This document shows, piece by piece, positions 6,887 to 56,182 of a stretch of DNA of 64,000 nt. Origin of the DNA: an uncultured Gammaproteobacteria bacterium (GTDB lineage: Bacteria; Patescibacteriota; Patescibacteriia; Magasanikbacterales; UBA922); contig CAZKAD010000003.1 in NCBI GenBank assembly GCA_964550845.1, positions 447 to 64,446 of the forward strand, read 5' to 3'. The position numbers and the translations under genes are program-made. The notes beneath the pieces were generated by a model. The model was not told the DNA's origin. It worked only from the letters and a program-made list of their open reading frames with translations, and did not search any database. Position 1 is the first letter of the stretch. Every line of letters starts with the position of its first letter.

Positions 6887-6894
6887 AAAATTGA
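6887..6894 (+). promoter_or_regulatory. AAAATTGA octamer upstream of the cap-modifying enzyme gene
   Basis: Exact octamer 34 nt upstream of the ATG at 6928. Confidence 0.5.
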
Positions 6895-6927: not shown

Positions 6928-9900
6928 ATGGCTGTCTTCTTCGCAAAAAGTCGGGACCCATTTTCAAACTTTTATCCGGTCTCATTTACTGTCGATGATT
7001 TGAAATACTCGAGTTCGGAACAGTATTTTATGGCCTCGAAAGCGAGATTCTTTAAAGATGTTGAAGCGGAGGACCAGATTATGGAAGCGGAATCTCCGAA
7101 AGAACAAAGAGAACTTGGACGTTCAGTCAAAAAGTTTGATCCAAGAGAATGGGATCGAGTTAAATTTAAAATCATGAAACAAGCCCTGTTGATTAAATTT
7201 CAACTTCCAAAGATGAAAAAGTTCCTTGTTGAGAGTCAACGAAAAGTTTTAATTGAAGCTGCACCTTGGGACGCGATTTGGGGAATTGGAATGGATGCTG
7301 ATAAAGCTGTGAATACACCCTTTCGTGAATGGGGAAAGAATGGACTTGGATTCTTATTGATGGAAGTTCGAGATTTTCTCCAAGGTAATTGGATTCAAGA
7401 AGACTTTGGTGTCTCAATGATTGGAAATTTCTATATCGGTGCACATCCAACTGAAGACCAAGCAAAGTTTCTTTTGGGAAAAGGAGTGAATCTATTTGTC
7501 TCCCTTGAGGAAAATCCAAGATATTTATCAGTTGTTGGTCAAGCATCGTCAAAAGTTTTTGCTCTTCCTACAGGAGGTATTCGAAATGATCAAGAGACAC
7601 TTGAATTTCTCGGTTGGTTACGAGATCAATATTTTCTCGGAAAAATCATTTATCTCCATAGTCGAAGAGGAATTGGAAGAACCGGATTGATTGCCAGTTT
7701 ATTTCTGAACTTGTTTCTCGGATATCAACCAAGTGATGCGTTGGATAAAGTTCGAAAATCTATTCATAGTCGAACTAATTTTAACCAGTCCTTCGGGACG
7801 TTTAAGCTTAAATTTATGCCTATTCCAGAAACTGCTTCACAAATAACTCAATTCACTCGTCTTGCCGACGGTGATAAAACCGATATTGATATGTCTGCTT
7901 ATACTCTTGAAGCAGAGAAAGCATGGATGACAAAACTTTCTGAAATTGAGCAAGACGACTTGATGACACGGGAAGATGTCGAATTGTATCAACAAATTGT
8001 ATCTCCTTCCTCTTCTTCAAAGGAAGTGAAAAAGGAAGATGAAATTAAACGTCTTGAAAAGTCTCTTAATCTTCCTGTTGGTGCAATTGAAGATGAGCAA
8101 GAAAATGACCCTCTTGCGGGTGCACTCGCAGAACTTGAACTTCGAAAGAGTGAAGAGAAGGAAGAACTTCGAAAGAGTGAAGAGAAGGAAGAACTTCGAA
8201 AGAGTGAAGAGAAGGACCCATTTGAAGCTGAACTTGAAGCGTTTGAAAATGAGGGTAAAAAAGATCCGCTCGAAGCTGAACTCGAGGCATTTGAGAATGA
8301 AGTAATCGAGCCTGACATCAAAACTTTCCTTGAAGAAGAGGCTAAAGTTGAAGTTAAACAACGAACTTCATTGACCGATCGAGATCTCGAAGAACAATTT
8401 CGACGTTTCGCTAATCAAGAACTTCATCTTCAAGCCGAGGAAGGTACATTTGTTCTTCAATCTGTCTTGAATGATATTTTCAATCGTTTTCTCGAACAAC
8501 AAAATATTCAAATTATCGATGTCGATAAGTTTGAACAAATCGCAATTCCCCTAATTGGAGAACCAGAGAAAATCGAATCAAAAATTCCCGAGTATGATGG
8601 AGATAAATATATTGAATCAAAAGTGTCAAAGTTGAATACTGGTTATCGAGTCAACTTTCGACTTCTTCCCGATGCAAATATTCGAATTACAAAAGTAAAA
8701 TCGCCAAAGCGATCACAAAAGAAGAAATCGAAAAGTGAAACTTTGTCTGAGAAAAAAGATGTTTCTCAATTGAGTCAAATTGAACCACCGAAAGAAGAGG
8801 TGAAAGAAGTGAAGATCGAGAAAAAACTTTCGTCATTTTTGTCCCATTTCTTCCCTGGCGATATTACCTTCATTCAACCGAATATCAATTTCACCGAAGA
8901 AACTTTGCATTATATGTCTCCAATGAGTAAAGCCGACAAACTCGCCGCATTACTTAAGACATATCCTCGTGCACAATTAGTTGTCGATGTTTTTGCTGGT
9001 ATTGGAGGCAATACACTTGGATTTGCTCGTGCAGGATTGCGTGTAGTCGCATATGAACGAGATCCGGAACGATTTAAAATGTTGAGAAATAACGTCCTTC
9101 ATTATCGGTTTGAGAAACAAGTGACGACGATTCGAGGAGAATTTAACCCCGGAAAAGATCTCGATATTATTCGAACTATTCAAAAGATTGAAGCAGACAA
9201 AGTAGTCTTCTTCTTTGATCCTCCATGGCTTCCATCTTTTGTCCAAAACTTTGACAAGTCACAATACATCTTAACTGGAATTACTCTTGCCGGTCAACTA
9301 CTTGAAGACATTGCTAAGAAAACTTTGCAGGAATATGGAGGATCGATATTTCATTTGCCTCCCGGTTACTCACTCAATTTGGCTGGAAGAATTGTTGATG
9401 ATAAATCTGATAACAAAGCGAGATTGATTTACTTTTTTGGCGATCAAATTCAAGCCAATATTGCCAAAGATTACAAACTGCAGATCAATTATGCAACTGA
9501 ATTTCCACGTGAACAATCCGAGGTCAAATATTCTCAAAATGAGTTAGTTGAACAACTGAAAGAAGTTGAACAACAAAAAGTGGAAGCTAAATTGTATCAA
9601 CCTCCGGTCAAAACAGTCTCGGTGGTCTTTCAAACTTTTCTGAATAAAAGCTTTCCTCGACGATCATATCAACATGAACCTTTCCATCCGAAAGCGGTTC
9701 ATAGTGGACAGCGAAAATTACTCTTGTCCGAGATTGAATTCTTGACTCGAGTTCTCTCAAAGGAAAAAACACTCGGTAAAGGCGGATCTTATACTATGCT
9801 TTACGTTGGAGCCGCGCCAGGAATTCATATTCCTTTGCTTGCAAATAAGTTTCCTGAAGTCAAGTTTATTTTGTATGATCCGGCCAAATTTGATATTGCT

Positions 9901-10542
9901 CCATCATCTCAGATCGAAATTCATCGAGAACTTTTCACTGATGAAAAAGTCGAAATGTACAAGAAGACTGAAAATTTATTGTTTGTGAGTGATATTCGAT
10001 CGACGCCGAAACAATTCGATCCAAATCAATCCGGCTTTGATTCGAGTTTTGAACAAGAGGTGATTTTTAACATGGAGCAACAAAAGAAATGGGTGACGGA
10101 ACTTCAACCACTCAGAAGTCTACTTAAATTTCGTCTTCCTTACAATGATCCTGAAAACCCTCGAGATGAACAGGAAACATTTAAATATCTTGATGGTATT
10201 CTTTTTTTCCAAGCTTATCCTCCAGAGCAATCAGGAGAAACTCGGCTTGAAGTTGGACTTCCGTTGAAAGAGACTGGTTATTTTCTTGCCCAGTATGAAC
10301 AGCAAATGTTTTATTTTAATACTCGATATCGGATTCAATCCTTCTCTCATTATTCACAATTTTACGGATGGTCTTATGATACTCTGAGAGAATACTTTAT
10401 TCTTCAAAACTATTACAAATTTCGTGGGATTATCGACAGTGATAAGAAGATCGAATATGATTTTCAAGATCACGACCGGATGGCTCACGGCCCGGAAAAG
10501 AAGATTTTTAACATTCTTCGTAACGCGGCAAAATACGGATAA
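6928..10542 (+). CDS. Multidomain RNA cap-modifying protein: NADAR (YbiA-like) domain, dual-specificity phosphatase / Mce1-like RNA triphosphatase-like domain with the catalytic Cys replaced by Ser, an acidic coiled-coil linker, a Tgs1-like cap guanine-N2 methyltransferase and a poxvirus VP39-like cap 2'-O-methyltransferase
   Basis: NADAR: FSNFYP...SSEQYFMASKARFF...LGR...W....IMKQALLIKFQ...LIEAAPWDAIWGIGMD...LGFLLMEVRDFL, which follows the YbiA consensus. PTP-like: IYLHSRRGIGRTGL, a Cx5R P-loop in which the Cys is Ser (agt at the catalytic position). Tgs1-like: VVDVFAGIGGNTLGFARAGLRVVAYERDP...FFFDPPW. VP39-like: HSGQRKLLLSEIEFLT...GGSYTMLYVGAAPGIHI...KFILYDP, compared with vaccinia VP39 FEGQKKLL..EF / VVYIGSAPGTHI. 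No guanylyltransferase KxDG motif was seen. Confidence 0.85.
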   Translation: MAVFFAKSRDPFSNFYPVSFTVDDLKYSSSEQYFMASKARFFKDVEAEDQIMEAESPKEQRELGRSVKKFDPREWDRVKFKIMKQALLIKFQLPKMKKFLVESQRKVLIEAAPWDAIWGIGMDADKAVNTPFREWGKNGLGFLLMEVRDFLQGNWIQEDFGVSMIGNFYIGAHPTEDQAKFLLGKGVNLFVSLEENPRYLSVVGQASSKVFALPTGGIRNDQETLEFLGWLRDQYFLGKIIYLHSRRGIGRTGLIASLFLNLFLGYQPSDALDKVRKSIHSRTNFNQSFGTFKLKFMPIPETASQITQFTRLADGDKTDIDMSAYTLEAEKAWMTKLSEIEQDDLMTREDVELYQQIVSPSSSSKEVKKEDEIKRLEKSLNLPVGAIEDEQENDPLAGALAELELRKSEEKEELRKSEEKEELRKSEEKDPFEAELEAFENEGKKDPLEAELEAFENEVIEPDIKTFLEEEAKVEVKQRTSLTDRDLEEQFRRFANQELHLQAEEGTFVLQSVLNDIFNRFLEQQNIQIIDVDKFEQIAIPLIGEPEKIESKIPEYDGDKYIESKVSKLNTGYRVNFRLLPDANIRITKVKSPKRSQKKKSKSETLSEKKDVSQLSQIEPPKEEVKEVKIEKKLSSFLSHFFPGDITFIQPNINFTEETLHYMSPMSKADKLAALLKTYPRAQLVVDVFAGIGGNTLGFARAGLRVVAYERDPERFKMLRNNVLHYRFEKQVTTIRGEFNPGKDLDIIRTIQKIEADKVVFFFDPPWLPSFVQNFDKSQYILTGITLAGQLLEDIAKKTLQEYGGSIFHLPPGYSLNLAGRIVDDKSDNKARLIYFFGDQIQANIAKDYKLQINYATEFPREQSEVKYSQNELVEQLKEVEQQKVEAKLYQPPVKTVSVVFQTFLNKSFPRRSYQHEPFHPKAVHSGQRKLLLSEIEFLTRVLSKEKTLGKGGSYTMLYVGAAPGIHIPLLANKFPEVKFILYDPAKFDIAPSSQIEIHRELFTDEKVEMYKKTENLLFVSDIRSTPKQFDPNQSGFDSSFEQEVIFNMEQQKKWVTELQPLRSLLKFRLPYNDPENPRDEQETFKYLDGILFFQAYPPEQSGETRLEVGLPLKETGYFLAQYEQQMFYFNTRYRIQSFSHYSQFYGWSYDTLREYFILQNYYKFRGIIDSDKKIEYDFQDHDRMAHGPEKKIFNILRNAAKYG

Positions 10543-10547
10543 CTTTC

Positions 10548-10566
10548 TGTTCCCCTCGGGGAAAAG
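10548..10566. terminator. 3'-end hairpin GTTCCCCtcGGGGAAAAG directly after the stop of 6928..10542
   Basis: Perfect inverted repeat starting 6 nt after the TAA. The same TTCCC(C)..GGGGAAAAG design recurs at 40875..40894 and 12977..13003. Confidence 0.55.
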
Positions 10567-10572
10567 AAAAGA

Positions 10573-16574: not shown

Positions 16575-18950
16575 ATGTCTTTCACTATTGTCACTGGACT
16601 GATAGACATTCGTCGAGGAGAATGGAACAGTTATTTTCGTCGGAGCATCCAAAATTACTTTGCCTCAATGACCAAAGGGGTTCTTCGATACGATCATCCA
16701 ATGATTGTATTCATTGAGCAAGAATATTACCCTCAAGTTGTCGAACTCCGCGAAGAGTTTCCAAATACTCGGATTATTCCGGTTACATTGTCGCAAACTT
16801 ATTTGTATCCACAAAGAGACCGTATCGGACAGATTCAATCTTCTTCGGAATACAAAAGTTTACTGCGAGAAGAAAGCAAAGTTAATCCAGAGCATTGGTG
16901 TCCGGACTATGATATCGTCACAATTCAAAAGGCATGTTGGATGCGAGATGCAATTCGAGAAAATCCTTTTTCAACTGAATACTTCGTCTGGATTGATGGT
17001 GGATATAGCAAAGGAACACTTGGTCTGACCATTCCAGCTACACTTGATTTATCTCCAATTCTTCAAATGATGGATTCGTCAAAAATCTTCTTTCAAGTTC
17101 TCGGAGAATCTCCTCGGAATCCATCCTTATTTCCTCTTGACATGACTCCGCTCGACTATTTCAAGAAGAATGATACTTTTATTTCCGGAGGACTTTATCT
17201 TGCAGGTAAAGCAAGTTTACCAATTTTTGATTATTACATTGAATTGGTTGATAAATGTTTACAACAAAATCTGATTGATGATGACCAGTTTTACTGGTTT
17301 CTCTGTATGAATTGTTCCAGATTTGCTCCATCATTTGTAGCTTATTCAATCGATGGTTGGGGTGAAGTATTTGAATTATTGAAAGCTCTTTCATTACCAG
17401 GTCAAAGAAAAATTTCCTCTTCAGCAGAAGAAAAATTTGTCCAAGTCAGTCAGCCAAGGATTGCAGTTCTTCTCACTGGCAATATTCGATCTTGGAAATA
17501 TATTGATAAGGCTTGGATGAAAAATTTTGATTGCTATGCAATCACCTATCCGAATAAATATATGTATCATCCTTTTATTCAATCTCAAATTGGAACATTT
17601 GATAAGAAGATTGATCCAACAGAAGAACTTCGAGACTTTCCTTTTAAGAAGATTTGTACAGTCTCTCAAGATCGAGATGACGAAATGGAAGCAAAAATGC
17701 ACCCTGAAATGAAAAAGATTTATCATGGTTATTATCAATATCATACTTCTCTCGAAGCTTTCCATCAAATATCAGAATTAAATCATTATGATTTTGTGAT
17801 TCGCACTCGATTTGATTTACAACCTCCTCCTGGATTGTTGGACAATTTATATCGAATCCTTTCAGTGTTTGAACCGACATTGTTACTCAACTCACTTGGG
17901 GATTTCTCCAATAAACCCAATCTTCCAATCCAAACCAATTTGAATGAACTTCAAGGAATTGCGGCGAAATCTATTTTGTATCCTCCTGAAACAGCTGCAT
18001 TCTATACTTACAATCCAAATACTATTCCGTCAGATACAGTTTTTATGGGGCCGCCCGAGATGATAAAGAAGTTGTTAAGTTTTGCAATTTCATCATATTT
18101 TCAACCAAGTTCTGAAAATTGTTGGAAAAATCCTCCTCATGGAATCATTCGTGAATTTATCTTGAAAAATCAAATCACTACACATGTTGCCAATTTTGGA
18201 ACGATTTTCAGACCACTTCCTCTTGAAGATCTTCCACCAAGAAAGGAGACTCTTTCAATTGGATTGCTGATTTCTGGGAATCTTCGGGGAAAATCACTTG
18301 CCTTGCCTCCACAATATCTTTTGACTAAACATCATATTACCGTTTATTTTGCTTCTTGGATTGATGAAGATTTTCTTTATGCTATTCAAGATCTCGAGCG
18401 TCTATCAAAACAAGGAATTGAATACCGTCTGATGTTGTTTCCACGTTCAAGTTCTTCGAGAATTGTTGAAAGTAGTTCCTCTACAAATTATCAGACTTAT
18501 CCCGGAATCTGTGGAGAGAAAACATTCGGCAATGCTTGTTCAATGTGGTATCTGTTTGAACAAGGATTGCAAGCAATTAAAACTTCGGAGCAAAAATGCG
18601 ATTTGATTATTCGCTGGCGTCCAGATTTGATTCTCGATTCGAATTGTATGCTTGATGATGAATTGATGTATCAAAGTGTTGAAAAGAATTGTCTGATGAT
18701 GCCGAAGTGGCATGGAAAATTTGGAGATGTCAATCGGCAAATGATGGATCAACTTTTCTGGGGTCCCGTCGAATTGATGCAAAAACTTTGTCTTTATTCG
18801 AGTCGAAAAGAACATTCCGAACAATCCGAATTTGCCCATACCGGAGAAGGGATGCTTGCGAGAATGATTGAAAAGGAAAAGATTTCCCTCGAACGTTTCC
18901 CAGCTCATTATGGGCTAAGGAGGAATGATCGTGTTGAAAAGATTGTTTGA
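16575..18950 (+). CDS. Large hypothetical protein with three internally repeated modules; possibly carbohydrate-modifying, by its position between the collagen-like genes and a glycosyltransferase
   Basis: 791-aa ORF. The repeated module starts are FTIVTGLIDIRRGEW, IAVLLTGNIRSWKY and IGLLISGNLRGKSL. Function is not established. Confidence 0.7.
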   Translation: MSFTIVTGLIDIRRGEWNSYFRRSIQNYFASMTKGVLRYDHPMIVFIEQEYYPQVVELREEFPNTRIIPVTLSQTYLYPQRDRIGQIQSSSEYKSLLREESKVNPEHWCPDYDIVTIQKACWMRDAIRENPFSTEYFVWIDGGYSKGTLGLTIPATLDLSPILQMMDSSKIFFQVLGESPRNPSLFPLDMTPLDYFKKNDTFISGGLYLAGKASLPIFDYYIELVDKCLQQNLIDDDQFYWFLCMNCSRFAPSFVAYSIDGWGEVFELLKALSLPGQRKISSSAEEKFVQVSQPRIAVLLTGNIRSWKYIDKAWMKNFDCYAITYPNKYMYHPFIQSQIGTFDKKIDPTEELRDFPFKKICTVSQDRDDEMEAKMHPEMKKIYHGYYQYHTSLEAFHQISELNHYDFVIRTRFDLQPPPGLLDNLYRILSVFEPTLLLNSLGDFSNKPNLPIQTNLNELQGIAAKSILYPPETAAFYTYNPNTIPSDTVFMGPPEMIKKLLSFAISSYFQPSSENCWKNPPHGIIREFILKNQITTHVANFGTIFRPLPLEDLPPRKETLSIGLLISGNLRGKSLALPPQYLLTKHHITVYFASWIDEDFLYAIQDLERLSKQGIEYRLMLFPRSSSSRIVESSSSTNYQTYPGICGEKTFGNACSMWYLFEQGLQAIKTSEQKCDLIIRWRPDLILDSNCMLDDELMYQSVEKNCLMMPKWHGKFGDVNRQMMDQLFWGPVELMQKLCLYSSRKEHSEQSEFAHTGEGMLARMIEKEKISLERFPAHYGLRRNDRVEKIV

Positions 18951-20005: not shown

Positions 20006-22171
20006 TTATGCGCTGAGATAAACCCACCTTGCTCGACTAAACATAAATCGAGCTGTACCAAGACTATCTAAAAGGCTTGCAGTTGGTATTGAAATTACAC
20101 TTCCTCCTGCACCTGCAAGATTGCTCCCGTTTTCAGTCGTCAATGTCAATAAATTACTTCCCCCAGTAATTATTACAATCATCATACCTTCATATGCTAA
20201 AGTTATAGGCAATATCAACGTGTAACCGTTAACTGTATCGACATTTTCAAAGTATGTTCCTATCATACTTCCAACTCCTAGATTGAATGTTCCTCCTCCT
20301 TCCGGAATTAAAACTAATCCGTGTGCCCATGTTTTTAATGCCGGTAAATGATCAACGATTAAAGAACTTCTGTAATAATTACTTCCGGTTCCAAATGATT
20401 TGTCATCTTGATGTAAAATAGTCCATCCAGAAGCACTTGTTACATTCACTCGATTACATCCTATTAAACATAAATTTCTTGAATCTGTGGAAGTGCACCC
20501 TGATGAATAAGCCATGAATACACCAGTAGAACGCAAACAGAAACCCGACGGACTTGACAGAAGCATACAACTATCCGATCCAGAAGCTCTTGATCCAGTT
20601 GCCAGCAAAATAGAAACAAATTTGGATGATAATATATTTGAATCGTGCGCGAATAAGATTGAACAATTAACTGGAGAAGGATTTGTTATTGGGTTTATTG
20701 TCGAAACAGCTTCTGGACGGGCATTTAAATTCATTCTGTTATTTGCACCTCCTACAATTAACGAATATAACCCAGCATGCATTGTCGATCCAGATGATAC
20801 TAAAATACCACAGTTTCTCGGGGGTATTATAGCATTCCAATCAAAATTATTGACTAGAATGCTATCTAGAGTTAGTCTATTACCGAATCCTCCCATGATA
20901 AAAGAATTTGAAGATCCTGACATTAAAGATGAAGGTGAAAATAAAATTGCAGAATTATTGCATCGAGCTGAAACAGTCGCATTATTCGAATGTGCAATTA
21001 AACAGTCAGTCGATCCTGACATAATAGAACTTATCGAGCCAATAGATGTGGCTCTTATTGCATTGGTTACTACAGAACTTTCTCCTCCGATTAAATTGCT
21101 TGTATCCGATCCGTTCATTGTTGTAGATTTTGAGCCGATGTTAGAACTATGAATTGAAGAACCGACTGAGCTAGCATATGCTAATAGATTAATATTTTCA
21201 GAAGAAGTAACTGTATTGAATTCTCCGGCAATCATCGAATATGAAGATTGATTAACAGTATTTTGTAGCCCTGATACCACACTTGAACCAGTTCCTCCGG
21301 TCGTAATTGTTCCGGAAATTCCTCCTAATATCGATCCTATTGAAGCTTGATTAACGGGAGTTCTACCAAAAGAGATTGATTCTGTATTTGATAATAGTCC
21401 TTGAGGTCCAGTGACTCCCGTCGGTCCTAAATTTCCTTGAACTCCTTGAACTCCTTGAACTCCTTGCGGTCCAGTTGGTCCAATTGGGCCTTGAACTCCT
21501 TGAACTCCTTGACTTCCATTCGCTCCCGCGGGTCCAGTTGGACCTGTCACACCCTGAATTCCTTGACTTCCGTTTGCACCTGCAGGACCAGTTGGTCCGG
21601 TTGCACCCGTAGGACCATTCGCTCCCGCGGGACCAGTTGGTCCGGTTGCACCCGTGTTAGTTGAGAATCCATCTGCTCCCTGAGGTCCAGTTGGACCTGT
21701 CGCTCCCGCAGGACCATTCGCTCCCGCAGGACCAGTTGGTCCGGTTGCACCCGTATTGGTAGCCGAGCCTGGAATTCCTTGCAATCCGGTTGGACCTGTA
21801 ACTCCGGCTACTCCTTGAGGTCCTGTTGGTCCTGTCGCTCCTGTGCTTGTAGCAGAGCCTGGAATTCCTTGAGGTCCAGAAGGTCCAGTTGGACCTGTTA
21901 TTCCAATTATTCCCTGAGGTCCAGTTGGTCCGGTTGCTCCTGTGCTTGTAGCCGAGCCTGGAATTCCTTGTGGTCCAGTCGGTCCTAAATTTCCCTGTAC
22001 TCCTTGAATTCCTTGTACTCCTTGTGGACCAGTTGGCCCAATTGGCCCTTCAGGACCCTGAGGACCTGTGGCTCCTGTACTTGTTGCAGAACCGGCAGGC
22101 CCTGTTGGCCCAATGCCAGCGCCGAGAAGAAGTAAAGGAGTATAAGAATTAAGGTTAATAATTCTTGACAT
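20006..22171 (-). CDS. Large collagen-like protein with approx. 250 aa of Gxx/GPT triplets at the N-terminus and a Ser/Thr/Asn-rich beta-rich C-terminal region; fibre-like
   Basis: [49 protein letters not shown]... and so on, followed by an approx. 450-aa S/T/N/G-rich region. Confidence 0.8.
21400..22130. repeat. Coding collagen triplet-repeat DNA (GGTCC/AGTTGG periodicity)
   Basis: Direct reading. The periodic 9-nt codon pattern generates the spurious antisense ORFs 21437..21664, 21547..21750 and 21779..21988. Confidence 0.85.
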
Positions 22172-25100: not shown

Positions 25101-26270
25101 ATGAAGATCATTGGTATTTCAGGTGGTGCCGGAACGGGAAAGGATTTTCTCCTTTCACAATTGTTTATTCCAATGCTGACTCGTGGAAAACCTTACGCAA
25201 TGATGGCTTTTGCCGATCACTTTAAAATGGAATGTATCGTGACAAAAGGATTAGATCGAGCCAAGGTGTTCGGAAGAAAGGATATTGAGACGAGAAAAAT
25301 TCTCCAGATTAAAGGTACAGAAGAAGGGCGGGACATCTACGGAGGTGATTTCTGGGTTCGTATTCTTCGTGAACGAATGATTCAATATCAAGCGAGAGGA
25401 ATCGAATATTTCTTTATTACTGATGTTCGTTTTCCTGAAGAAATTGCATTTGTGCGAAGTCAAGGAGGAGTAGTAATTAAAATTAATGCTCCTGATCGAT
25501 ATCTCGAAGCGATGAGAATTGAAAACGGTAATGATCCGTCGGTAGTTCAACATCGATCTGAAACATCTGTCAAAGAAGAAAAATTCGACTTTACGATTAA
25601 TAATCGATTGACTGATACTGATGTAGCCGATCAAGCTCGAGAAATTGTTTTGATTCTTCGCGAGAGATGGAAATATCAATGCACCGTGTTTTGCGATCTT
25701 GATGACACTCTGGTTGAATGTAATCGTCATTACAAGGAGATTATTGATCAAGTACTTGACAAAATACTGATTGCATATCCTCAGCTTGATCGAAATTTTC
25801 TTCGCTCGAAGTTTCTTGCCGAAGAACATTTAATTGGAGAATTATTCTTCTCTCGAGAAGCTTTTGCAGTCTCTTTGAGTAAATTGGGTCCTCCTGATGC
25901 TCTTGCTTTCACAAGAGAAATTTTCTCTCTTGGAATGAGCGTTCATCAATCTGAGTTTAATCTATTGCCTAGCGCAAGAGAAAATTTATTTACTTTAAAT
26001 AGGAAATTTCATCTCGTGATCACTACAGTTGGAGATCCAGTTGATCAAGTTCGAAAATTGTTTAAAAATGGTCTCTATGGTTTCAAGCTAGAATGCACCA
26101 GCAAAAAAGATGTCGGTTTTTTCCGGAATATGATCGAAAAATATCCATCGAAGCACTATGCTGTAATTGGAGATTCAATTCATGCTGATATTTTACCGGC
26201 AGTCAAAGCTGGTGTTCTTGATATTCATCACATTGAGAATCACAATTTCGGACAACTTCGGTTTGAATAA
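25101..26270 (+). CDS. Fusion of a T4 gp1-like deoxynucleoside monophosphate kinase (N-terminus) and a HAD-superfamily phosphatase (C-terminus)
   Basis: N-terminus MKIIGISGGAGTGKDF (P-loop), compared with T4 dNMP kinase MKLIFLSGVKRSGKDT, plus ITDVRFPEE...GGVVIKINAP. The C-terminus carries HAD motifs I (CDLDDTLV), II (VITTVG), III (K) and IV (GDSIHAD). Confidence 0.65.
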   Translation: MKIIGISGGAGTGKDFLLSQLFIPMLTRGKPYAMMAFADHFKMECIVTKGLDRAKVFGRKDIETRKILQIKGTEEGRDIYGGDFWVRILRERMIQYQARGIEYFFITDVRFPEEIAFVRSQGGVVIKINAPDRYLEAMRIENGNDPSVVQHRSETSVKEEKFDFTINNRLTDTDVADQAREIVLILRERWKYQCTVFCDLDDTLVECNRHYKEIIDQVLDKILIAYPQLDRNFLRSKFLAEEHLIGELFFSREAFAVSLSKLGPPDALAFTREIFSLGMSVHQSEFNLLPSARENLFTLNRKFHLVITTVGDPVDQVRKLFKNGLYGFKLECTSKKDVGFFRNMIEKYPSKHYAVIGDSIHADILPAVKAGVLDIHHIENHNFGQLRFE

Positions 26271-26301: not shown

Positions 26302-26826
26302 TTATCTTCTATTCCTCGAAAATGCTCTCTTTTTCATCATCTCCTTGACGAATTTCCTCAAATGTGAGTTATTTTTTGGATCATCTCGAAAACAAGCAAA
26401 TGAAATCCAGCCATTTCCAGTCACGTCGTTTTCTGGATTTGGATCGATTGACAGACAATTCCACTGATCGGGAAAGTCAAAAAATGGATAATAAAAATAA
26501 GTGGTTCCTCCTCCATAGGAATATCGTTTCAATTGGTCAAGTTCTTTAGCGGGGATCTCGATTCCAGTTTCTTCTTTCAATTCGCGTGAGGCAGTTTCAG
26601 CAAGAGATTCTCCTTTCTCTTGTCCACCTTTTGGGAAACCAAGATGTTGATGATAAGTTTCAACTAATAGAAATTTGTCATCTTTAATTGAATGGAGAAT
26701 GACTCCAGCACGAATTCTTCGCTCTTTTTTTGCTCCAATTGGTCTTACATACAACTTTTCTTTCTTTTCAGTCACGAGAGAATACCACACGCATCCACAT
26801 TGTTGATGACGATTGATCGATGACAT
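26302..26826 (-). CDS. Nudix hydrolase
   Basis: Nudix box GFPKGGQEKGESLAETASRELKEETGIEI (G-x5-E-x7-REUxEExGU). Confidence 0.75.
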   Translation of the reverse strand: MSSINRHQQCGCVWYSLVTEKKEKLYVRPIGAKKERRIRAGVILHSIKDDKFLLVETYHQHLGFPKGGQEKGESLAETASRELKEETGIEIPAKELDQLKRYSYGGGTTYFYYPFFDFPDQWNCLSIDPNPENDVTGNGWISFACFRDDPKNNSHLRKFVKEMMKKRAFSRNRR

Positions 26827-54376: not shown

Positions 54377-56182
54377 ATGCCTCTTCGCAAACTGGCTTTC
54401 TATGTGAATCAACTTGTTTCGACCTCTCTAAATGATTTCTTCTTGAATTGTCTCAAGGAAATTCAAGAACAGACAAAATCTAATTCGGCGAATCTTCGGG
54501 TCTTTAACGGTCCGACAATTCAAACCTCAACAGATTCAATTGAAACAAATATTCATTCGGAGAAAGCAATCATTACGCGATCTATTTATTTTGACGAAAA
54601 AGAATCATGGATACCCTTATTATCTGGAGATAAAGTCTGTGGTCTAATTGGCTTACTCAGTCCAAAAGAGCGTCCAAATCAGTTTGTTGAACAACTAATC
54701 AACTTAATTGTTGCTCGAATTCTATCGATCAAGAAAGAATTACCAAATGATTCTTTTATCTCGAACATGAGTCATGAATTGAGAAATCCTTTGAACGGGT
54801 TACTGGGATATCTTCAAATTCTTGAATCATCGGGGTTAAATTCTGCTCAACAAGGATATCTCTACTCGGCACAAAAATGCGGTTTGAGTTTAATTCGAGT
54901 CGTCAACGATATCTTAGATTACTCAAAACTAATGTCAGGTAAAATGAAGTTAAACGTACAAATTACCAATTTGTATGATTTACTTGGTTTTGTCGAAGAA
55001 ACTCTCCATATTTCAATCCAAGAAAAAGGACACACTTTTACCCTCTTTTTTCATCCAGATGTCCCAAAGATGATTTTAACCGATTCTCAAAAATTAGCTC
55101 AGATTTGTATTAATCTGCTAAGTAATGCAATTAAATTCACACCGGCGAAAGGAAAAATTAACTTTGAAGTAAATCTGATGATCAAAGAAAAAGAATATCT
55201 TATCTTTAAGATTGCCGATACTGGTTGTGGCATTTCAAAAATTCAATCGGATGAATTGTTTCGAACTTTTACTCGACTTCATCATTCAAGAGAAGAGGGA
55301 ACAGGGCTTGGATTAGTTATTTCGAAAAAACTAACCGAATTGCTCTCAGGAACTATTCGTCTTGAAAAATCTTCATCTGAAGGTTCGGAATTTGTTTTTG
55401 AAATTCCACTTCAGAGAGCTCAAGAAGTTCGAAGTTCTCAACTTGGATTTAAGAAAGAAGTTTGTTTATTTGTTTCAGAGAAAGTTCAAACAGAATTAAA
55501 TCCACTGCTATTACGATGGGGAATGAAAGTATTTAATGTTCAATCTTTTTCAGAACTTTTAACAATCTTGAGCAGTTATGTATATGATTTTGAACTTGTC
55601 ATTCTTGAAGATGGAGAAAAAGAATTTGAACAAAATTCGAATAAGATTTGGGAAATTTGTCCAAAAATTCCAATTATACATGCCTGTAAAATCTTACCTC
55701 AAAAGAAGAGTGACTCATATTTTCATCTGCTTAATTTTACTCCAACAGAATTGTACAATTGTATTGCAAGGGCCTTGGAAAATTCTCTCTATTTGAAAAA
55801 GAAAAATTCGATTCGACTTGATCTGAAGAAAAAGATTTTGATTGCTGAAGATGATCCAAGTGGAAGGGAAATTTTGTCTAGATTACTCCAATCAATTGGT
55901 TTCTCGGAAATTGATTGTGCCGAAGATGGTCTTCAAGCCTTGAATATGATTCAAAAGAAAAGTTATTCTTACTTATTCATTGATTTGAAAATGCCGGTTA
56001 TTGACGGGTATGAAGTAATTACCACAATAAATAAGAAACCAAATAAGACAATGAAATTAATTTGTGTTTCAGCATCTGTTACAGATGAAGATAAACAATT
56101 TTGTCAAAAAGCATCTGTTCCATTTCTTGCAAAACCGGTTCAATTTCGAAATCTACAAGACTTGATGGTTTCATTGAGTTAG
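54377..56182 (+). CDS. Hybrid sensor histidine kinase: N-terminal sensor region, HisKA, HATPase_c, a degenerate middle domain and a C-terminal receiver (REC) domain; soluble
   Basis: H-box MSHELRNPLNGLLGYLQIL. N box LLSNAIKFT. G1 DTGCGI. G2 GTGLGLVISKKL. Receiver: ILIAEDDPSGREIL...LFIDLKMPVIDGYEV...LAKP. No TM helices were seen. Confidence 0.85.
   Translation: MPLRKLAFYVNQLVSTSLNDFFLNCLKEIQEQTKSNSANLRVFNGPTIQTSTDSIETNIHSEKAIITRSIYFDEKESWIPLLSGDKVCGLIGLLSPKERPNQFVEQLINLIVARILSIKKELPNDSFISNMSHELRNPLNGLLGYLQILESSGLNSAQQGYLYSAQKCGLSLIRVVNDILDYSKLMSGKMKLNVQITNLYDLLGFVEETLHISIQEKGHTFTLFFHPDVPKMILTDSQKLAQICINLLSNAIKFTPAKGKINFEVNLMIKEKEYLIFKIADTGCGISKIQSDELFRTFTRLHHSREEGTGLGLVISKKLTELLSGTIRLEKSSSEGSEFVFEIPLQRAQEVRSSQLGFKKEVCLFVSEKVQTELNPLLLRWGMKVFNVQSFSELLTILSSYVYDFELVILEDGEKEFEQNSNKIWEICPKIPIIHACKILPQKKSDSYFHLLNFTPTELYNCIARALENSLYLKKKNSIRLDLKKKILIAEDDPSGREILSRLLQSIGFSEIDCAEDGLQALNMIQKKSYSYLFIDLKMPVIDGYEVITTINKKPNKTMKLICVSASVTDEDKQFCQKASVPFLAKPVQFRNLQDLMVSLS

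What the first reader, a model, noticed from the sequence alone, without database searches (positions are those of the whole stretch)
6928..10542. A 1204-aa fusion combining NADAR, a phosphatase-like domain, a Tgs1-like cap N2-methyltransferase and a VP39-like cap 2'-O-methyltransferase
The largest ORF concatenates four RNA-end-processing modules that are normally separate proteins. The N-terminal NADAR/YbiA domain matches the consensus very clearly. Next come a Cx5R phosphatase-fold domain of the Mce1/BVP RNA-triphosphatase type, a class-I methyltransferase with the trimethylguanosine-synthase signature (VVDVFAGIGGNT...FDPPW) and a C-terminal domain that closely matches the poxvirus VP39 cap-specific 2'-O-methyltransferase. 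There is no guanylyltransferase (KxDG) module, so this is not the capping enzyme itself. It looks like a cap-remodelling enzyme that could make hypermethylated (m2,7G/TMG, cap-1) ends. NADAR domains are linked to ADP-ribose/NAD-derived N-glycoside processing, which raises the speculative possibility that the enzyme processes NAD-capped or ADP-ribosylated RNA ends.
Basis: partly seen in the sequence, partly recalled or inferred. Interest (0 to 1): 0.8.

Follow-up and report, generated by a model that had tools for sequence, protein, structure and literature searches.

The report
Giant-virus cap methyltransferase fused to NADAR
A giant virus has merged two neighbouring genes into one 1204-residue protein: a pair of mRNA-cap methyltransferases joined to an ADP-ribose-removing NADAR domain and a phosphatase-like domain that has lost its catalytic cysteine. 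The combination is unusual, but it is built from known parts.

Summary
The 1204-aa ORF (6928-10542, +) is real, and three of the four domain calls hold. NADAR has all its catalytic residues. The Tgs1-type cap guanine-N2 methyltransferase carries the DPPW motif. The VP39-type 2'-O-methyltransferase has an intact K-D-K-E tetrad and cap-binding residues. There is no guanylyltransferase.

The fourth call is wrong in detail. The phosphatase-fold domain reads HSRRGIGRT, with Ser where the nucleophilic Cys should be, and the whole protein has no cysteine. The domain resembles compact archaeal/atypical DSPs, not Mce1/BVP. It is still under purifying selection, so I read it as a pseudophosphatase.

The "four-module fusion" is really two older two-domain modules. 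In a syntenic relative they are adjacent genes in the same frame, a NADAR-PTP with Cys intact and a Tgs-VP39 gene, separated by one TGA and 33 nt. The Tgs-VP39 pair is widespread in giant viruses. It often sits next to RPB2 and is sometimes fused to the capping enzyme itself. The NADAR-PTP cassette is rare and also occurs fused to an NAD-dependent DNA ligase.

Published work shows NADARs remove ADP-ribose from guanine N2 in DNA and RNA and are inactive on phosphate-end ADP-ribosylated RNA. Verdict: a new variant of known kinds, of moderate interest.

The parts
6887..6894 (+). AAAATTGA octamer (Mimiviridae-type early promoter motif), 34 nt upstream of the ATG
   Evidence: 12 of 23 copies in the window lie within 100 nt upstream of an ORF start in the correct orientation (0.9 expected, P=1.4e-11). 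This is one of them.
6928..10542 (+). The whole fused ORF, 1204 aa, with no cysteine
   Evidence: An identical protein (P0160) and 9 further members of the same 90%-identity cluster occur in NCBI, JGI, ENA and Logan assemblies, plus P0002 at 92-95% identity.
6934..7392 (+). NADAR domain (YbiA subfamily), aa 3-155. Catalytic residues E31, K38, E110, D115 and W118 are present.
   Evidence: Pfam E=1e-41. PDB 8bau (Phytophthora NADAR with ADP-ribose) E=1e-19 and YbiA 2b3w E=1.5e-12. Residue roles from PMC11543638, PMC11125620 and PMC9303266. dN/dS 0.03.
7405..7797 (+). PTP/DSP-fold domain, aa 160-290, read as a pseudophosphatase
   Evidence: Best PDB sequence hit is the SsoPTP C96S mutant 2dxp, E=1.6e-5. 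Foldseek: Tk-PTP TM 0.81, SsoPTP, ShufPTP, VHZ, MKP5 (model confidence is low, pLDDT 67). All Pfam PTP families score below their cut-offs. dN/dS 0.086.
7657..7683 (+). P-loop H244-S245-R-R-G-I-G-R251-T252. The Ser245 codon is AGT at 7660-7662.
   Evidence: Ser aligns with the catalytic Cys of SsoPTP and TpbA. P0007, P0015 and P0166 have HCKGGIGRT. The P0007 codon is TGT, so this is one transversion. All fused-clade sequences read have Ser.
7813..7947 (+). Conserved C-terminal tail of the NADAR-PTP cassette (F-M-P-I-P-E-T ... Q-I-x-Q ... R-L ... Y..E..K.W..K-L), aa 296-340
   Evidence: These residues are invariant across the window, P0007, P0002, P0015 and P0166. No Pfam match.
7942..7965 (+). 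Fusion junction: a relic promoter-like octamer GAAATTGA (7942-7949) and Met346 (7963-7965), which corresponds to the start of the formerly separate downstream gene
   Evidence: In L002 the two genes are in the same frame, separated by one TGA (inside AAAAATGA) and 33 nt. The near-match octamer was found.
7963..8337 (+). Acidic low-complexity linker, aa 346-470. It includes a perfect 27-nt x3 tandem repeat at 8137-8216 (ELRKSEEKE).
   Evidence: The repeat copy number varies between strains. This region has the highest dN/dS, 0.16.
8338..8847 (+). Uncharacterised conserved region, aa 471-640. It is shared only with the 939/945-aa orthologues P0003 and P0163.
   Evidence: No Pfam or PDB match. 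dN/dS 0.08.
8848..9507 (+). Tgs1-type cap guanine-N2 methyltransferase domain, aa 641-860. Key residues: Y662, S664-P665, D687, GIGGN695, E710, D764-P-P-W767, H809-L-P-P-G-Y814.
9643..10539 (+). VP39-type cap ribose 2'-O-methyltransferase domain, aa 906-1204. Catalytic K930, D1022, K1067, E1104. SAM motif YVGAAPG. Cap-binding equivalents Y1072, D1074, E1124 and probably Y914.
   Evidence: Pfam PARP_regulatory E=2e-29. Residue-level alignment to VP39. Residue roles from PMC4402537. Family conservation. dN/dS 0.007.

Best explanation
The ORF is a lineage-specific fusion of two neighbouring genes of a Mimiviridae-like giant virus.

C-terminal part (from about Met346). This is the orthologue of a conserved giant-virus bifunctional mRNA-cap methyltransferase.
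- First comes a Tgs-type guanine-N2 methyltransferase of the DPPW variety, as in MimiTgs and Giardia Tgs2. I expect it to convert m7G caps to m2,7G.
- Then comes a VP39-type, m7G-cap-binding ribose 2'-O-methyltransferase. Which nucleotide it methylates (first, second or third) cannot be told from sequence.

N-terminal third. This is a rare, mobile NADAR-PTP cassette.
- The NADAR is of the YbiA type and has every catalytic residue. I expect it to cut ADP-ribose off the N2 of guanine in RNA or DNA.
- The PTP-fold domain has had its nucleophilic Cys replaced by Ser in this clade. It cannot work as a cysteine phosphatase. Because it is still under purifying selection, it is most likely kept as a phosphate-binding or scaffolding module.

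Origin. The in-frame TGA and 33-nt spacer seen in the split relative were converted to coding sequence, turning two genes into one. The halves are tethered by an acidic linker of about 125 aa that contains tandem repeats.

Shown here: domain identities, motif states, the origin of the fusion, its presence in many independent assemblies, purifying selection on every part, and the association of the methyltransferase pair with RPB2 and with capping enzymes.

Inferred: the substrates, the products, and whether the two halves cooperate. The long flexible linker would allow them to act independently.
For: - Domains.
- Catalytic and motif residues: read against PMC11543638, PMC11125620, PMC9303266, PMC2709555 and PMC4402537.
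- Fusion origin: in syntenic contigs L002-L006 a 342-aa NADAR-PTP gene (P0007, HCKGGIGRT) is followed after 33 nt by a 945-aa Tgs-VP39 gene, in the same frame with one TGA between them.
- The fusion is not an assembly artefact: the fused-clade proteins come from separate NCBI, JGI, ENA and Logan assemblies, and P0002 is 92-95% identical.
- Selection within the fused clade at dS of about 0.5: dN/dS is 0.03 for NADAR, 0.086 for PTP-like, 0.03 for Tgs-like and 0.007 for VP39-like.
- The methyltransferase pair acts on caps: about 18 protein clusters have the same two-domain architecture. The gene lies directly downstream of RPB2 in L007, L008 and L010. Other proteins fuse the same domains to GTase and N7-methyltransferase (P0009, P0045, P0090) or carry them in reverse order (P0017, P0044).
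- Early-promoter octamer at -34.
Against: - There is no biochemistry for any member of these families.
- The Tgs-like domain aligns to TGS1 by sequence only up to PPW. The TGS1 phosphate-binding residues R807 and N808 appear to be Pro and Gly here; about half of the family has Arg or Lys at the R807 position.
- VP39 homologues differ in specificity (PMC4402537, PMC13393146).
- The NADAR-PTP cassette is also fused to an NAD-dependent DNA ligase, so its natural target may be DNA rather than mRNA.
- Outside this clade the methyltransferase gene has no NADAR-PTP neighbour, so the fusion may be functionally incidental.
- The PTP model is of low confidence (pLDDT 67).
- A surviving promoter-like octamer 13 nt before Met346 leaves open separate expression of the methyltransferase half.
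Confidence: 0.6

Rival explanations
1. Incidental read-through fusion. Loss of a stop codon joined two neighbours that have nothing to do with each other. The NADAR-PTP half is a general anti-ADP-ribosylation or NAD-metabolite module, and the other half is the ordinary viral cap methyltransferase. The fusion is tolerated because the long acidic linker lets each half work alone. This overlaps with the best explanation and differs only in denying any cooperation.
For: - Giant-virus genes are not organised in operons, so adjacency means little.
- More distant methyltransferase orthologues sit next to RPB2 with no NADAR-PTP nearby.
- The cassette also fuses to a DNA ligase.
- The linker is low-complexity, varies in copy number and is the least constrained part.
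- The catalytic Cys was lost around the same time, which suggests reduced demands on that domain.
Against: - The adjacency is kept between lineages whose synonymous sites are saturated, despite rearrangements around them.
- The fusion has persisted through dS of about 0.5 with purifying selection on all parts, including the dead phosphatase.
- An independent literature link exists between NADAR proteins and cap-binding or TMG-capped RNPs (SNA-3, PMC9303266).
Confidence: 0.3
2. Guanine-N2 'erase and block' counter-defence. A host or competitor ADP-ribosyltransferase tags the exocyclic N2 of guanine on viral mRNA, possibly on the cap guanosine. NADAR removes the tag. The Tgs domain then methylates the same N2 atom so that it cannot be re-modified. 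The Ser-P-loop domain holds the triphosphate bridge or the ADP-ribose diphosphate.
For: - NADARs hydrolyse exactly the N2-guanine ADP-ribose linkage, on RNA as well as DNA (PMC11543638, PMC11833690).
- ScARP also modifies guanine mononucleotides (PMC11833690).
- Tgs enzymes methylate guanine N2 of the cap (PMC2709555).
- The two activities are adjacent and then fused in this clade.
- C-to-S PTP mutants are the classic substrate-binding, catalytically dead forms. The best PDB sequence hit is such a mutant.
Against: - This rests purely on domain chemistry plus one fusion event.
- I know of no report of cap ADP-ribosylation.
- The cassette also occurs with a DNA ligase.
- Most Tgs-VP39 genes lack any NADAR partner.
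Confidence: 0.1
3. An active Cx5R RNA-triphosphatase-like phosphatase and a NADAR that processes NAD-capped or ADP-ribosylated RNA 5' ends feed substrates to the methyltransferases, which build TMG/cap-1 ends.
For: - A PTP fold is present.
- Cys-containing relatives exist (P0007, P0015), so the ancestral cassette probably had phosphatase activity.
- NADAR is contextually linked to NAD and ADP-ribose systems (PMC9503650).
Against: - Ser replaces the nucleophile and the protein has no Cys.
- BVP, PIR1 and Mce1 are weak sequence hits (E=0.07-0.18) and are absent from the structural top 50.
- NADARs are inactive on phosphate-end ADP-ribosylated RNA (PMC11833690).
- The DPPW Tgs variant is the one linked to the dimethyl cap (PMC2709555, PMC4402537).
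Confidence: 0.05
4. The methyltransferases are not cap-specific. The Tgs-like domain would be an RsmD/Trm-type m2G (or m6A) methyltransferase acting on internal RNA positions. The VP39-like domain would act as an internal or poly(A) 2'-O-methyltransferase or as a poly(A) polymerase cofactor.
For: - An automatic JGI annotation calls a family member 'RsmD'.
- The second half of the Tgs1 profile is not matched, and R807/N808 are not conserved.
- Megavirus Mg18 methylates poly(A) internally (PMC4402537).
Against: - The Trp of DPPW is invariant in the intact members of the family.
- The VP39 m7G-binding residues F180, D182 and E233 have equivalents.
- The same domains are fused to GTase and N7-methyltransferase in other proteins and lie next to RPB2.
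Confidence: 0.12

Closest known systems
Mimivirus L320 (MimiTgs) and Giardia Tgs2, cap guanine-N2 methyltransferases; human TGS1 as the structural reference (PDB 3gdh)
   Same: - Class-I methyltransferase with the Tgs N-terminal extension.
- Motif I VxDxFxGxGGN.
- DPPW instead of SPPW, exactly the MimiTgs/Tgs2 variant (PMC2709555).
- MimiTgs shows that giant viruses can make m2,7G caps (PMC4402537).
   Different: - Here the domain is embedded in a 1204-aa protein and is always followed by a VP39-like domain.
- The sequence after PPW does not align with TGS1.
- The R807/N808 equivalents are Pro and Gly.
- An invariant Tyr (Y662) replaces TGS1 Ser671 opposite the stacking Trp.
- No activity data.
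Vaccinia VP39; Megavirus chilensis Mg18; medusavirus Cap3 methyltransferase (VP39-like 2'-O-methyltransferases)
   Same: - K-D-K-E tetrad and SAM motif.
- Equivalents of the cap-binding residues F180, D182 and E233 (PMC4402537).
   Different: - No evidence that it is a poly(A) polymerase subunit.
- It is fused to a Tgs domain.
- The ribose position it targets is unknown, because family members differ: cap1, internal poly(A) and cap3 (PMC4402537, PMC13393146).
Phytophthora nicotianae NADAR (8bau), E. coli YbiA and phage T4 gp30.3, which are guanine-ADP-ribose hydrolases; C. elegans SNA-3
   Same: - YbiA-family NADAR with E31, K38, E110, D115 and W118.
- NADARs occur in giant viruses (PMC9503650).
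- SNA-3 links NADAR domains to the TMG-capped SL1 snRNP and to CBC-ARS2 (PMC9303266).
   Different: - It is fused to a PTP-fold domain and to cap methyltransferases.
- In the 2022 survey of viral NAD/ADP-ribose systems my word searches found no occurrence of 'methyltransferase', 'PTP', 'DSP' or 'dual-specificity' (PMC9503650), so this architecture is not described there.
- Substrate untested.
Pseudophosphatases of the PTP superfamily (the STYX / MK-STYX type, from my own knowledge) and engineered Cys-to-Ser trapping mutants such as SsoPTP C96S (2dxp) and TpbA C132S (4r0t)
   Same: - PTP fold with the P-loop Arg kept and the nucleophilic Cys replaced by Ser.
- Such proteins bind phospho-ligands but do not turn them over.
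- The best PDB sequence hit is the C96S mutant.
   Different: - This is a natural viral domain that sits between NADAR and the cap methyltransferases.
- Its P-loop gained two Arg (CKGGIGR to SRRGIGR).
- Ligand unknown.
Unannotated metagenomic giant-virus 'cap factory' fusions (P0009: GTase, N7-methyltransferase, Tgs, VP39, another methyltransferase and GT8; P0045 and P0090: TPase, GTase, N7-methyltransferase, VP39; P0005 and P0181: N6/N4-type methyltransferase, Tgs, VP39)
   Same: The same Tgs-like and VP39-like domains are concatenated with other cap or RNA enzymes.
   Different: - None of them carries NADAR or a PTP-fold domain.
- The window protein has no TPase, GTase or N7-methyltransferase.

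Membership tests
NADAR (PF08719), YbiA subfamily | Profile match above the curated cut-off | tested here: met
   143.3 bits against a cut-off of 35.1, aa 8-151 covering profile positions 9-162 of 163.
NADAR (PF08719), YbiA subfamily | Catalytic Glu and Lys seven residues apart (E88/K95 of E. coli C7 NADAR), the last-strand Glu typical of YbiA-type NADARs, and the D/W of the DAxWG motif | tested here: met
   E31/K38 (EQYFMASK), E110 and D115/W118 (VLIEAAPWDAIWGIG) align with 8bau and YbiA. They are invariant in the cassette alignment. Residue roles from PMC11543638, PMC11125620 and PMC9303266.
NADAR (PF08719), YbiA subfamily | Hydrolysis of guanine-N2-linked ADP-ribose (or another ribosyl N-glycoside) | not testable with these tools
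   Needs an enzyme assay.
Cysteine-dependent PTP/DSP phosphatases | PTP fold | tested here: met
   Foldseek: Tk-PTP TM 0.81, SsoPTP, ShufPTP, VHZ, MKP5 (low-confidence model). Sequence hits to SsoPTP at E=1.6e-5 and TpbA at E=2e-4. All Pfam PTP families are below their gathering scores for this protein, although the relative P0015 passes PTP-SAK with 55.9 bits against 27.
Cysteine-dependent PTP/DSP phosphatases | HCx5R(S/T) signature with a nucleophilic Cys | tested here: not met
   The motif is H244-S245-RRGIG-R251-T252. Ser aligns with SsoPTP C96 and TpbA C132. There is no Cys anywhere in the protein. Ser is fixed in all fused-clade sequences read, whereas P0007, P0015 and P0166 have Cys.
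Cysteine-dependent PTP/DSP phosphatases | General-acid Asp | tested here: inconclusive
   The SsoPTP D69 position (PDGG) is T215 here, and is L or T in the Cys-containing relatives. A nearby Asp (D221) is invariant in the cassette.
RNA 5'-triphosphatase branch of the PTP superfamily (Mce1, BVP, PIR1) | Specific similarity to this branch, plus the catalytic Cys | tested here: not met
   BVP 1yn9 E=0.07 and PIR1 E=0.17-0.18, against 1.6e-5 for SsoPTP. None of them appears in the Foldseek top 50. The Cys is absent.
Tgs1 / Methyltransf_15 cap guanine-N2 methyltransferases | Profile match above the cut-off and best structural match, including the N-terminal extension | tested here: met
Tgs1 / Methyltransf_15 cap guanine-N2 methyltransferases | SAM-binding residues D696 and N704 (motif I), the acidic residue D719, and T673-P674 | tested here: met
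   D687, N695, E710 (a conservative change) and S664-P665 (conservative) by alignment. A-G-I-G-G and the Y-E pair (Y709/E710) are invariant; the Asp and Asn positions are conserved in all but a few members. Residue roles from PMC2709555.
Tgs1 / Methyltransf_15 cap guanine-N2 methyltransferases | (S/D)PPW catalytic motif with the m7G-stacking Trp | tested here: met
   D764-P-P-W767, invariant in the family alignment and lost only in decayed members. DPPW is the Giardia Tgs2 / MimiTgs form, and S763D human TGS1 keeps 97% activity (PMC2709555).
Tgs1 / Methyltransf_15 cap guanine-N2 methyltransferases | Cap triphosphate contacts K646, R807 and N808 | tested here: inconclusive
   No profile alignment extends past PPW. 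By motif inspection, F804-L-P-R807-N808 corresponds to H809-L-P-P812-G813. About half of the family has Arg or Lys at the R807 position. The K646 equivalent was not identified.
Tgs1 / Methyltransf_15 cap guanine-N2 methyltransferases | m7G-dependent N2 methylation | not testable with these tools
   Needs an enzyme assay.
VP39 / PARP_regulatory cap 2'-O-methyltransferases | Profile match above the cut-off and the K-D-K-E catalytic tetrad | tested here: met
   102.9 bits against 25.4. K930, D1022, K1067 and E1104 align with VP39 K41, D138, K175 and E207. They are conserved in about 18 of 26 family members.
VP39 / PARP_regulatory cap 2'-O-methyltransferases | m7G cap pocket: Y22 and F180 stacking, D182 and E233 hydrogen bonding | tested here: met
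   Y1072, D1074 and E1124 align with F180, D182 and E233 (roles from PMC4402537). The Y22 equivalent (probably Y914 in the conserved PRRxY) lies outside the HMM alignment, so that single residue is inconclusive.
VP39 / PARP_regulatory cap 2'-O-methyltransferases | Heterodimerisation with poly(A) polymerase; methylation position | not tested
   No poly(A) polymerase was identified in the window. Specificity differs among homologues (PMC4402537, PMC13393146).
mRNA capping enzyme (guanylyltransferase) | KxDG nucleotidyl-transfer motif and the mRNA_cap_enzyme domain | tested here: not met
   No K.DG motif in the 1204 aa and no Pfam capping-enzyme hit at E<=1.

The most novel reading that the evidence does not exclude
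NADAR and the Tgs domain act on the same atom, the exocyclic N2 of guanine. The fusion could therefore mark an unrecognised layer of virus-host conflict at the mRNA cap. A host or competitor enzyme ADP-ribosylates guanine N2 of viral caps or mRNA. NADAR erases the tag. N2-methylation then makes the cap refractory. If true, this would also give a rationale for DMG caps in giant viruses and for the NADAR protein SNA-3 at TMG-capped SL RNPs.
Probability: 0.1. Interest if true: 0.85.

Novelty: new variant of a known kind. Interest (0 to 1): 0.5.

Why it matters
It gives a concrete, testable link between two fields that have not met: nucleic-acid ADP-ribosylation reversal by NADARs, and cap hypermethylation by Tgs enzymes. 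It identifies a widespread but unannotated bifunctional cap methyltransferase (Tgs plus VP39) in Mimiviridae-like viruses. That enzyme could explain how their mRNAs obtain DMG and ribose-methylated caps, and it may be useful as a single-polypeptide tool for mRNA cap engineering. It also documents a clean natural example of a gene fusion caught together with its unfused ancestor state, accompanied by conversion of a phosphatase into a pseudoenzyme.

Tried and rejected
- Full-length word-indexed homology search. It was swamped by the low-complexity linker and returned only two near-identical proteins. The exhaustive HMMER search and domain-wise searches replaced it.
- IMG/VR scan with the VP39-like domain. 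No confirmed relatives.
- Assembly artefact or pseudogene. Rejected: the fusion occurs in many independent assemblies and all parts are under purifying selection.
- Sequencing error at Ser245. Rejected: the AGT codon is shared by the window and the 92-95%-identical relative, and Ser is present in all fused-clade proteins read.
- RNA-triphosphatase-type phosphatase. Rejected.
- Other NADAR hits of about 350 aa (P0026, P0052, P0066). These are tandem-NADAR proteins, not NADAR-PTP.
- Terminator hairpin in the L002 spacer as evidence for separate transcripts. A 10-bp AU stem exists but is not distinguishable from shuffled sequence (z=-1.1), so this is inconclusive.
- Middle region aa 471-640. No Pfam or PDB sequence match.
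- Testing the Y662/W767 cap sandwich on the model. The coordinates are not exposed to scripts.
- Papers on MimiTgs (PMC2661837) and on RNA-repair systems (the source of the 'PTP-SAK' name) are not held in the library. The PTP-SAK annotation therefore rests on the Pfam name only.
- BFVD search for named isolates with the same two-methyltransferase fusion. It found only single-domain or differently fused Tgs-like proteins.

Full report
**1. The observation**

The ORF listing gives one ORF at 6928..10542 (+) of 1204 aa, the longest in the window. Pfam places four things on it:
- NADAR, aa 8-151, E=1e-41.
- A weak PTP-fold signal, aa 167-284. The best family is PTP-NADK at E=6e-4, and every PTP family is below its gathering score.
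- Methyltransf_15, the Tgs1 family, aa 683-767, E=6e-11. Only the first half of the profile is matched.
- PARP_regulatory/VP39, aa 920-1165, E=2e-29.

PDB sequence searches agree. The hits are Phytophthora NADAR 8bau and E. coli YbiA, human TGS1, vaccinia VP39, and, for the phosphatase-like part, SsoPTP and TpbA. There is no K.DG motif and no capping-enzyme domain. So the ORF and three of the four domain calls are confirmed.

**2. The phosphatase call is wrong in the detail that matters**

- The P-loop reads L-H244-S245-R-R-G-I-G-R251-T. The alignments to SsoPTP and TpbA put Ser245 on the catalytic cysteine.
- The best PDB hit is in fact the engineered C96S trapping mutant of SsoPTP.
- The protein has no cysteine at all, where about 17 are expected from the other 50 ORFs of the window (Poisson P=3e-8).
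- Ser is encoded by AGT in the window and in a 92-95%-identical relative. The Cys-containing homologue P0007 has TGT at that position.
- All fused-clade sequences I read have HSRRGIGRTG.
- BVP, PIR1 and Mce1-type RNA triphosphatases are only marginal sequence hits (E=0.07-0.18). They are absent from the top 50 structural matches, which are compact archaeal and atypical DSPs: Tk-PTP at TM 0.81, SsoPTP, ShufPTP, VHZ, MKP5 and PRL-1. The underlying model is of modest quality (pLDDT 67).
- The domain is not decaying. Between the two fused-clade sequences (dS about 0.5) its dN/dS is 0.086. The other values are 0.03 for NADAR and Tgs-like, 0.007 for VP39-like and 0.16 for the linker.

I therefore read it as a pseudophosphatase that is retained for binding or scaffolding.

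**3. What the genome is**

The neighbours include a PBCV-type P9 minor capsid protein, DUF5767, DUF5832 and DUF5891, collagen-repeat proteins, Skp1, PolX, Nudix, AAA and helicase genes. The octamer AAAATTGA is known to me as the Mimiviridae early promoter. It is not enriched overall, but 12 of its 23 copies lie within 100 nt upstream of an ORF start in the correct orientation (0.9 expected, P=1.4e-11). One of these lies 34 nt before this ORF's ATG. This is a Mimiviridae-like (Imitervirales) giant virus, and the ORF is probably an early gene.

**4. The ORF is a fusion of two neighbouring genes**

The exhaustive HMMER search of 1.84 billion representatives found only one other full-length relative. 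It also found two kinds of partial relatives:
- P0007 (342 aa) covers aa 1-342, which is NADAR plus PTP.
- A set of proteins of about 575 aa covers aa 630-1204, which is Tgs plus VP39.

P0007 sits on contigs that are syntenic with the window: Skp1, fasciclin, P9, then P0007. Immediately downstream is a 945-aa gene that carries the acidic region, the middle region and both methyltransferase domains. At the DNA level the two genes are in the same reading frame. They are separated by a single TGA, embedded in a promoter-like AAAAATGA, and by 33 nt. In the window this stretch is coding. A one-mismatch octamer, GAAATTGA, survives 13 nt before Met346, which aligns with the old start codon.

The split state must be ancestral, for three reasons:
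- The methyltransferase pair exists alone in many lineages.
- The NADAR-PTP cassette exists alone (P0007).
- The cassette is also fused to a different partner, an NAD-dependent DNA ligase (P0015 and P0166, on a giant-virus-like contig).

Both Cys-containing cassettes share a conserved tail with the window protein, F-x-P-I-P-E-T...Q-I-x-Q...R-L. The fusion is not an artefact. Fused proteins come from NCBI, JGI, ENA and Logan assemblies, and they differ from one another mainly in the copy number of a 27-nt repeat in the linker.

**5. The methyltransferase half**

Tgs-like domain:
- The family profile hits TGS1 at E=1e-12, with the next family at 1e-5.
- Against the residues defined in the TGS1 structure paper (PMC2709555), the equivalents are: D696 to D687, N704 to N695, D719 to E710, T673-P674 to S664-P665, and S763-P-P-W766 to D764-P-P-W767.
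- DPPW is exactly the variant of Giardia Tgs2 and mimivirus MimiTgs, and S763D human TGS1 keeps 97% activity (PMC2709555). MimiTgs makes a 2,7-dimethylguanosine cap (PMC4402537).
- After PPW there is no sequence alignment. By motif inspection the TGS1 F-L-P-R807-N808 element corresponds to an invariant H-x-P-x-x-Y, with Pro and Gly at the R807/N808 positions in the window and Arg or Lys at the R807 position in about half of the family.
- An invariant Tyr (Y662) occupies the place of TGS1 Ser671, opposite the stacking Trp. It could complete an aromatic sandwich. This is an inference from the alignment, because I could not inspect the model coordinates.

VP39-like domain:
- It has the K-D-K-E tetrad (K930, D1022, K1067, E1104) and the SAM motif.
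- It has equivalents of the m7G-binding residues F180, D182 and E233 (Y1072, D1074, E1124; roles from PMC4402537).
- Which ribose it methylates cannot be told. Mg18 of Megavirus also methylates poly(A) internally (PMC4402537), and a medusavirus homologue is a Cap3 methyltransferase (PMC13393146).

Context of the pair:
- About 18 protein clusters have the same Tgs-VP39 architecture.
- In three separate relatives the gene lies directly downstream of the RNA polymerase RPB2 gene.
- Other metagenomic proteins fuse the same domains to the capping enzyme: P0009 (GTase, N7-methyltransferase, Tgs, VP39, another methyltransferase, GT8) and P0045/P0090 (TPase, GTase, N7-methyltransferase, VP39).
- The two domains occur in the opposite order in P0017 and P0044, and with a third methyltransferase in P0005 and P0181.
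- This is strong contextual evidence that the pair works on mRNA caps.
- A minority of family members have decayed motifs (P0006, P0012, P0031, P0057, P0186). The window protein is fully intact.

**6. The NADAR half**

- The domain has E31 and K38 seven residues apart, E110, and D115/W118 of the DAxWG motif. These are the residues required in characterised NADARs (PMC11543638, PMC11125620, PMC9303266).
- Published biochemistry shows that NADARs of several subfamilies, including the YbiA-type Phytophthora enzyme that is the best PDB match here, hydrolyse ADP-ribose linked to the N2 of guanine in DNA (PMC11543638, PMC11125620).
- NADARs do the same on RNA and are inactive on phosphate-end ADP-ribosylated RNA (PMC11833690). 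Nothing I read addresses NAD-capped RNA.
- In the 2022 survey of viral NAD/ADP-ribose systems, my word searches found no occurrence of 'methyltransferase', 'PTP', 'DSP' or 'dual-specificity' (PMC9503650). A NADAR fused to cap methyltransferases or to a PTP-fold domain is therefore not described there.
- One independent link between NADAR and caps exists. [quoted passage not shown]

**7. Mechanism**

I commit to the following, at about 0.6.
- The C-terminal part is a bifunctional cap-modifying enzyme that converts m7G-capped viral mRNA to an m2,7G cap with ribose 2'-O-methylation.
- The N-terminal part contributes a guanine de-ADP-ribosylating activity and a catalytically dead, phosphate-binding PTP fold.

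Whether the halves cooperate is open. Adjacency conserved across saturated divergence, followed by a maintained fusion, argues mildly for cooperation. The flexible linker, the ligase-fused version of the cassette and the many methyltransferase genes without a NADAR partner argue for an incidental fusion (about 0.3).

The most novel reading that is not excluded (about 0.1) starts from the fact that NADAR and Tgs address the same atom, guanine N2. The protein could erase ADP-ribose from viral caps or mRNA and then block the site by methylation.

**8. Verdict**

The finding is real and mostly correctly described at the domain level. Three corrections apply:
- The phosphatase is a Ser-substituted pseudoenzyme of the minimal-DSP type.
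- The four-domain protein is a recent fusion of two pre-existing two-domain genes.
- The NADAR chemistry points to guanine-base ADP-ribose rather than RNA-end ADP-ribose.

All parts belong to known families, and the combination is new. I rate it a new variant of a known kind, with interest 0.5.

Noticed in passing
window-wide; e.g. 2587, 5996, 6887, 11258, 11293(-), 29542(-), 34878(-), 44928(-), 49770, 50796, 57783(-), 63106(-): AAAATTGA is not enriched overall (23 copies against 23.9 expected). However, 12 of the 23 copies lie 16-66 nt upstream of ORF starts in the correct orientation (0.9 expected). This is a Mimiviridae-type early-promoter signature that helps place the virus.
   Followed up: yes
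window 6928-10542; also 29-1699 and 1741-2277: The 1204-aa protein has no cysteine (17.3 expected, P=3e-8). Its NADAR-PTP half lost all six Cys present in the unfused homologue P0007. Two other ORFs in the window (556 aa and 178 aa) are also Cys-free. Possibly selection against oxidisable residues; unexplained.
   Followed up: partly
window 8137-8216: A perfect 27-nt x3 tandem repeat encodes ELRKSEEKE in the linker. Its copy number differs between otherwise near-identical strains (protein lengths 1177-1213 aa).
   Followed up: partly
window 7942-7949: A promoter-like GAAATTGA survives inside the ORF, 13 nt before Met346, the ancestral start of the methyltransferase gene. The methyltransferase half might still be expressed separately.
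   Followed up: no
window 25101-26270 (+) and 26302-26826 (-); L002 11737-13430: A Nudix gene (a possible decapping or ADP-ribose pyrophosphatase enzyme) is paired with a dNMP-kinase/HAD gene. In the split relative this pair lies two genes downstream of the methyltransferase gene. In the window it is about 15 kb away, with collagen-like and HtrL_YibB genes in between.
   Followed up: partly
L007 2271-7743; L008 2456-7746; L010 1015-7731: In three more distant relatives the Tgs-VP39 gene lies directly downstream of the RNA polymerase second-largest subunit gene, on the same strand. A thioredoxin gene lies upstream of RPB2 in all three.
   Followed up: partly
L011 8001-10925 (P0166); P0015: NADAR, a Cys-intact PTP and an NAD-dependent DNA ligase (adenylation, OB, HhH and BRCT domains) are fused in one 974/975-aa giant-virus protein. 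I did not find this architecture described.
   Followed up: partly
P0009 (2660 aa), P0045, P0090; P0005 and P0181 (L009 6001-8619, 368-kb contig GCA_964602595.1): Very large 'cap factory' fusions exist. P0009 carries GTase, N7-methyltransferase, Tgs, VP39, a further methyltransferase and glycosyltransferase 8. There are also triple-methyltransferase proteins with an extra N6/N4-type (SPPF) methyltransferase at the N-terminus.
   Followed up: partly
P0006, P0012, P0031, P0057, P0186: Some Tgs-VP39 family members have lost SAM-binding or catalytic motifs in one or both domains. P0057 has in addition gained a C-terminal GT8 glycosyltransferase. The scaffold is apparently being re-used as a pseudoenzyme.
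   Followed up: no
window 54377-56182 (+): A hybrid histidine kinase (HisKA and HATPase_c) with a receiver domain is encoded in a giant-virus genome.
   Followed up: no
window 16575-18950 (+) and 20006-22171 (-): A 791-aa protein has an N-terminal bacterial HtrL_YibB domain (E=8e-34), next to a 721-aa collagen-repeat protein. Both are conserved in the 92%-identical relative (L001).
   Followed up: no
window 10544-10572: A GC-cored palindrome (CTTTCTGTTCCCCTCGGGGAAAAGAAAAG) lies directly after the stop codon, between convergent genes. It is consistent with the hairpin 3'-end signals of Mimiviridae, but it is not statistically distinctive (z=-1.5).
   Followed up: partly
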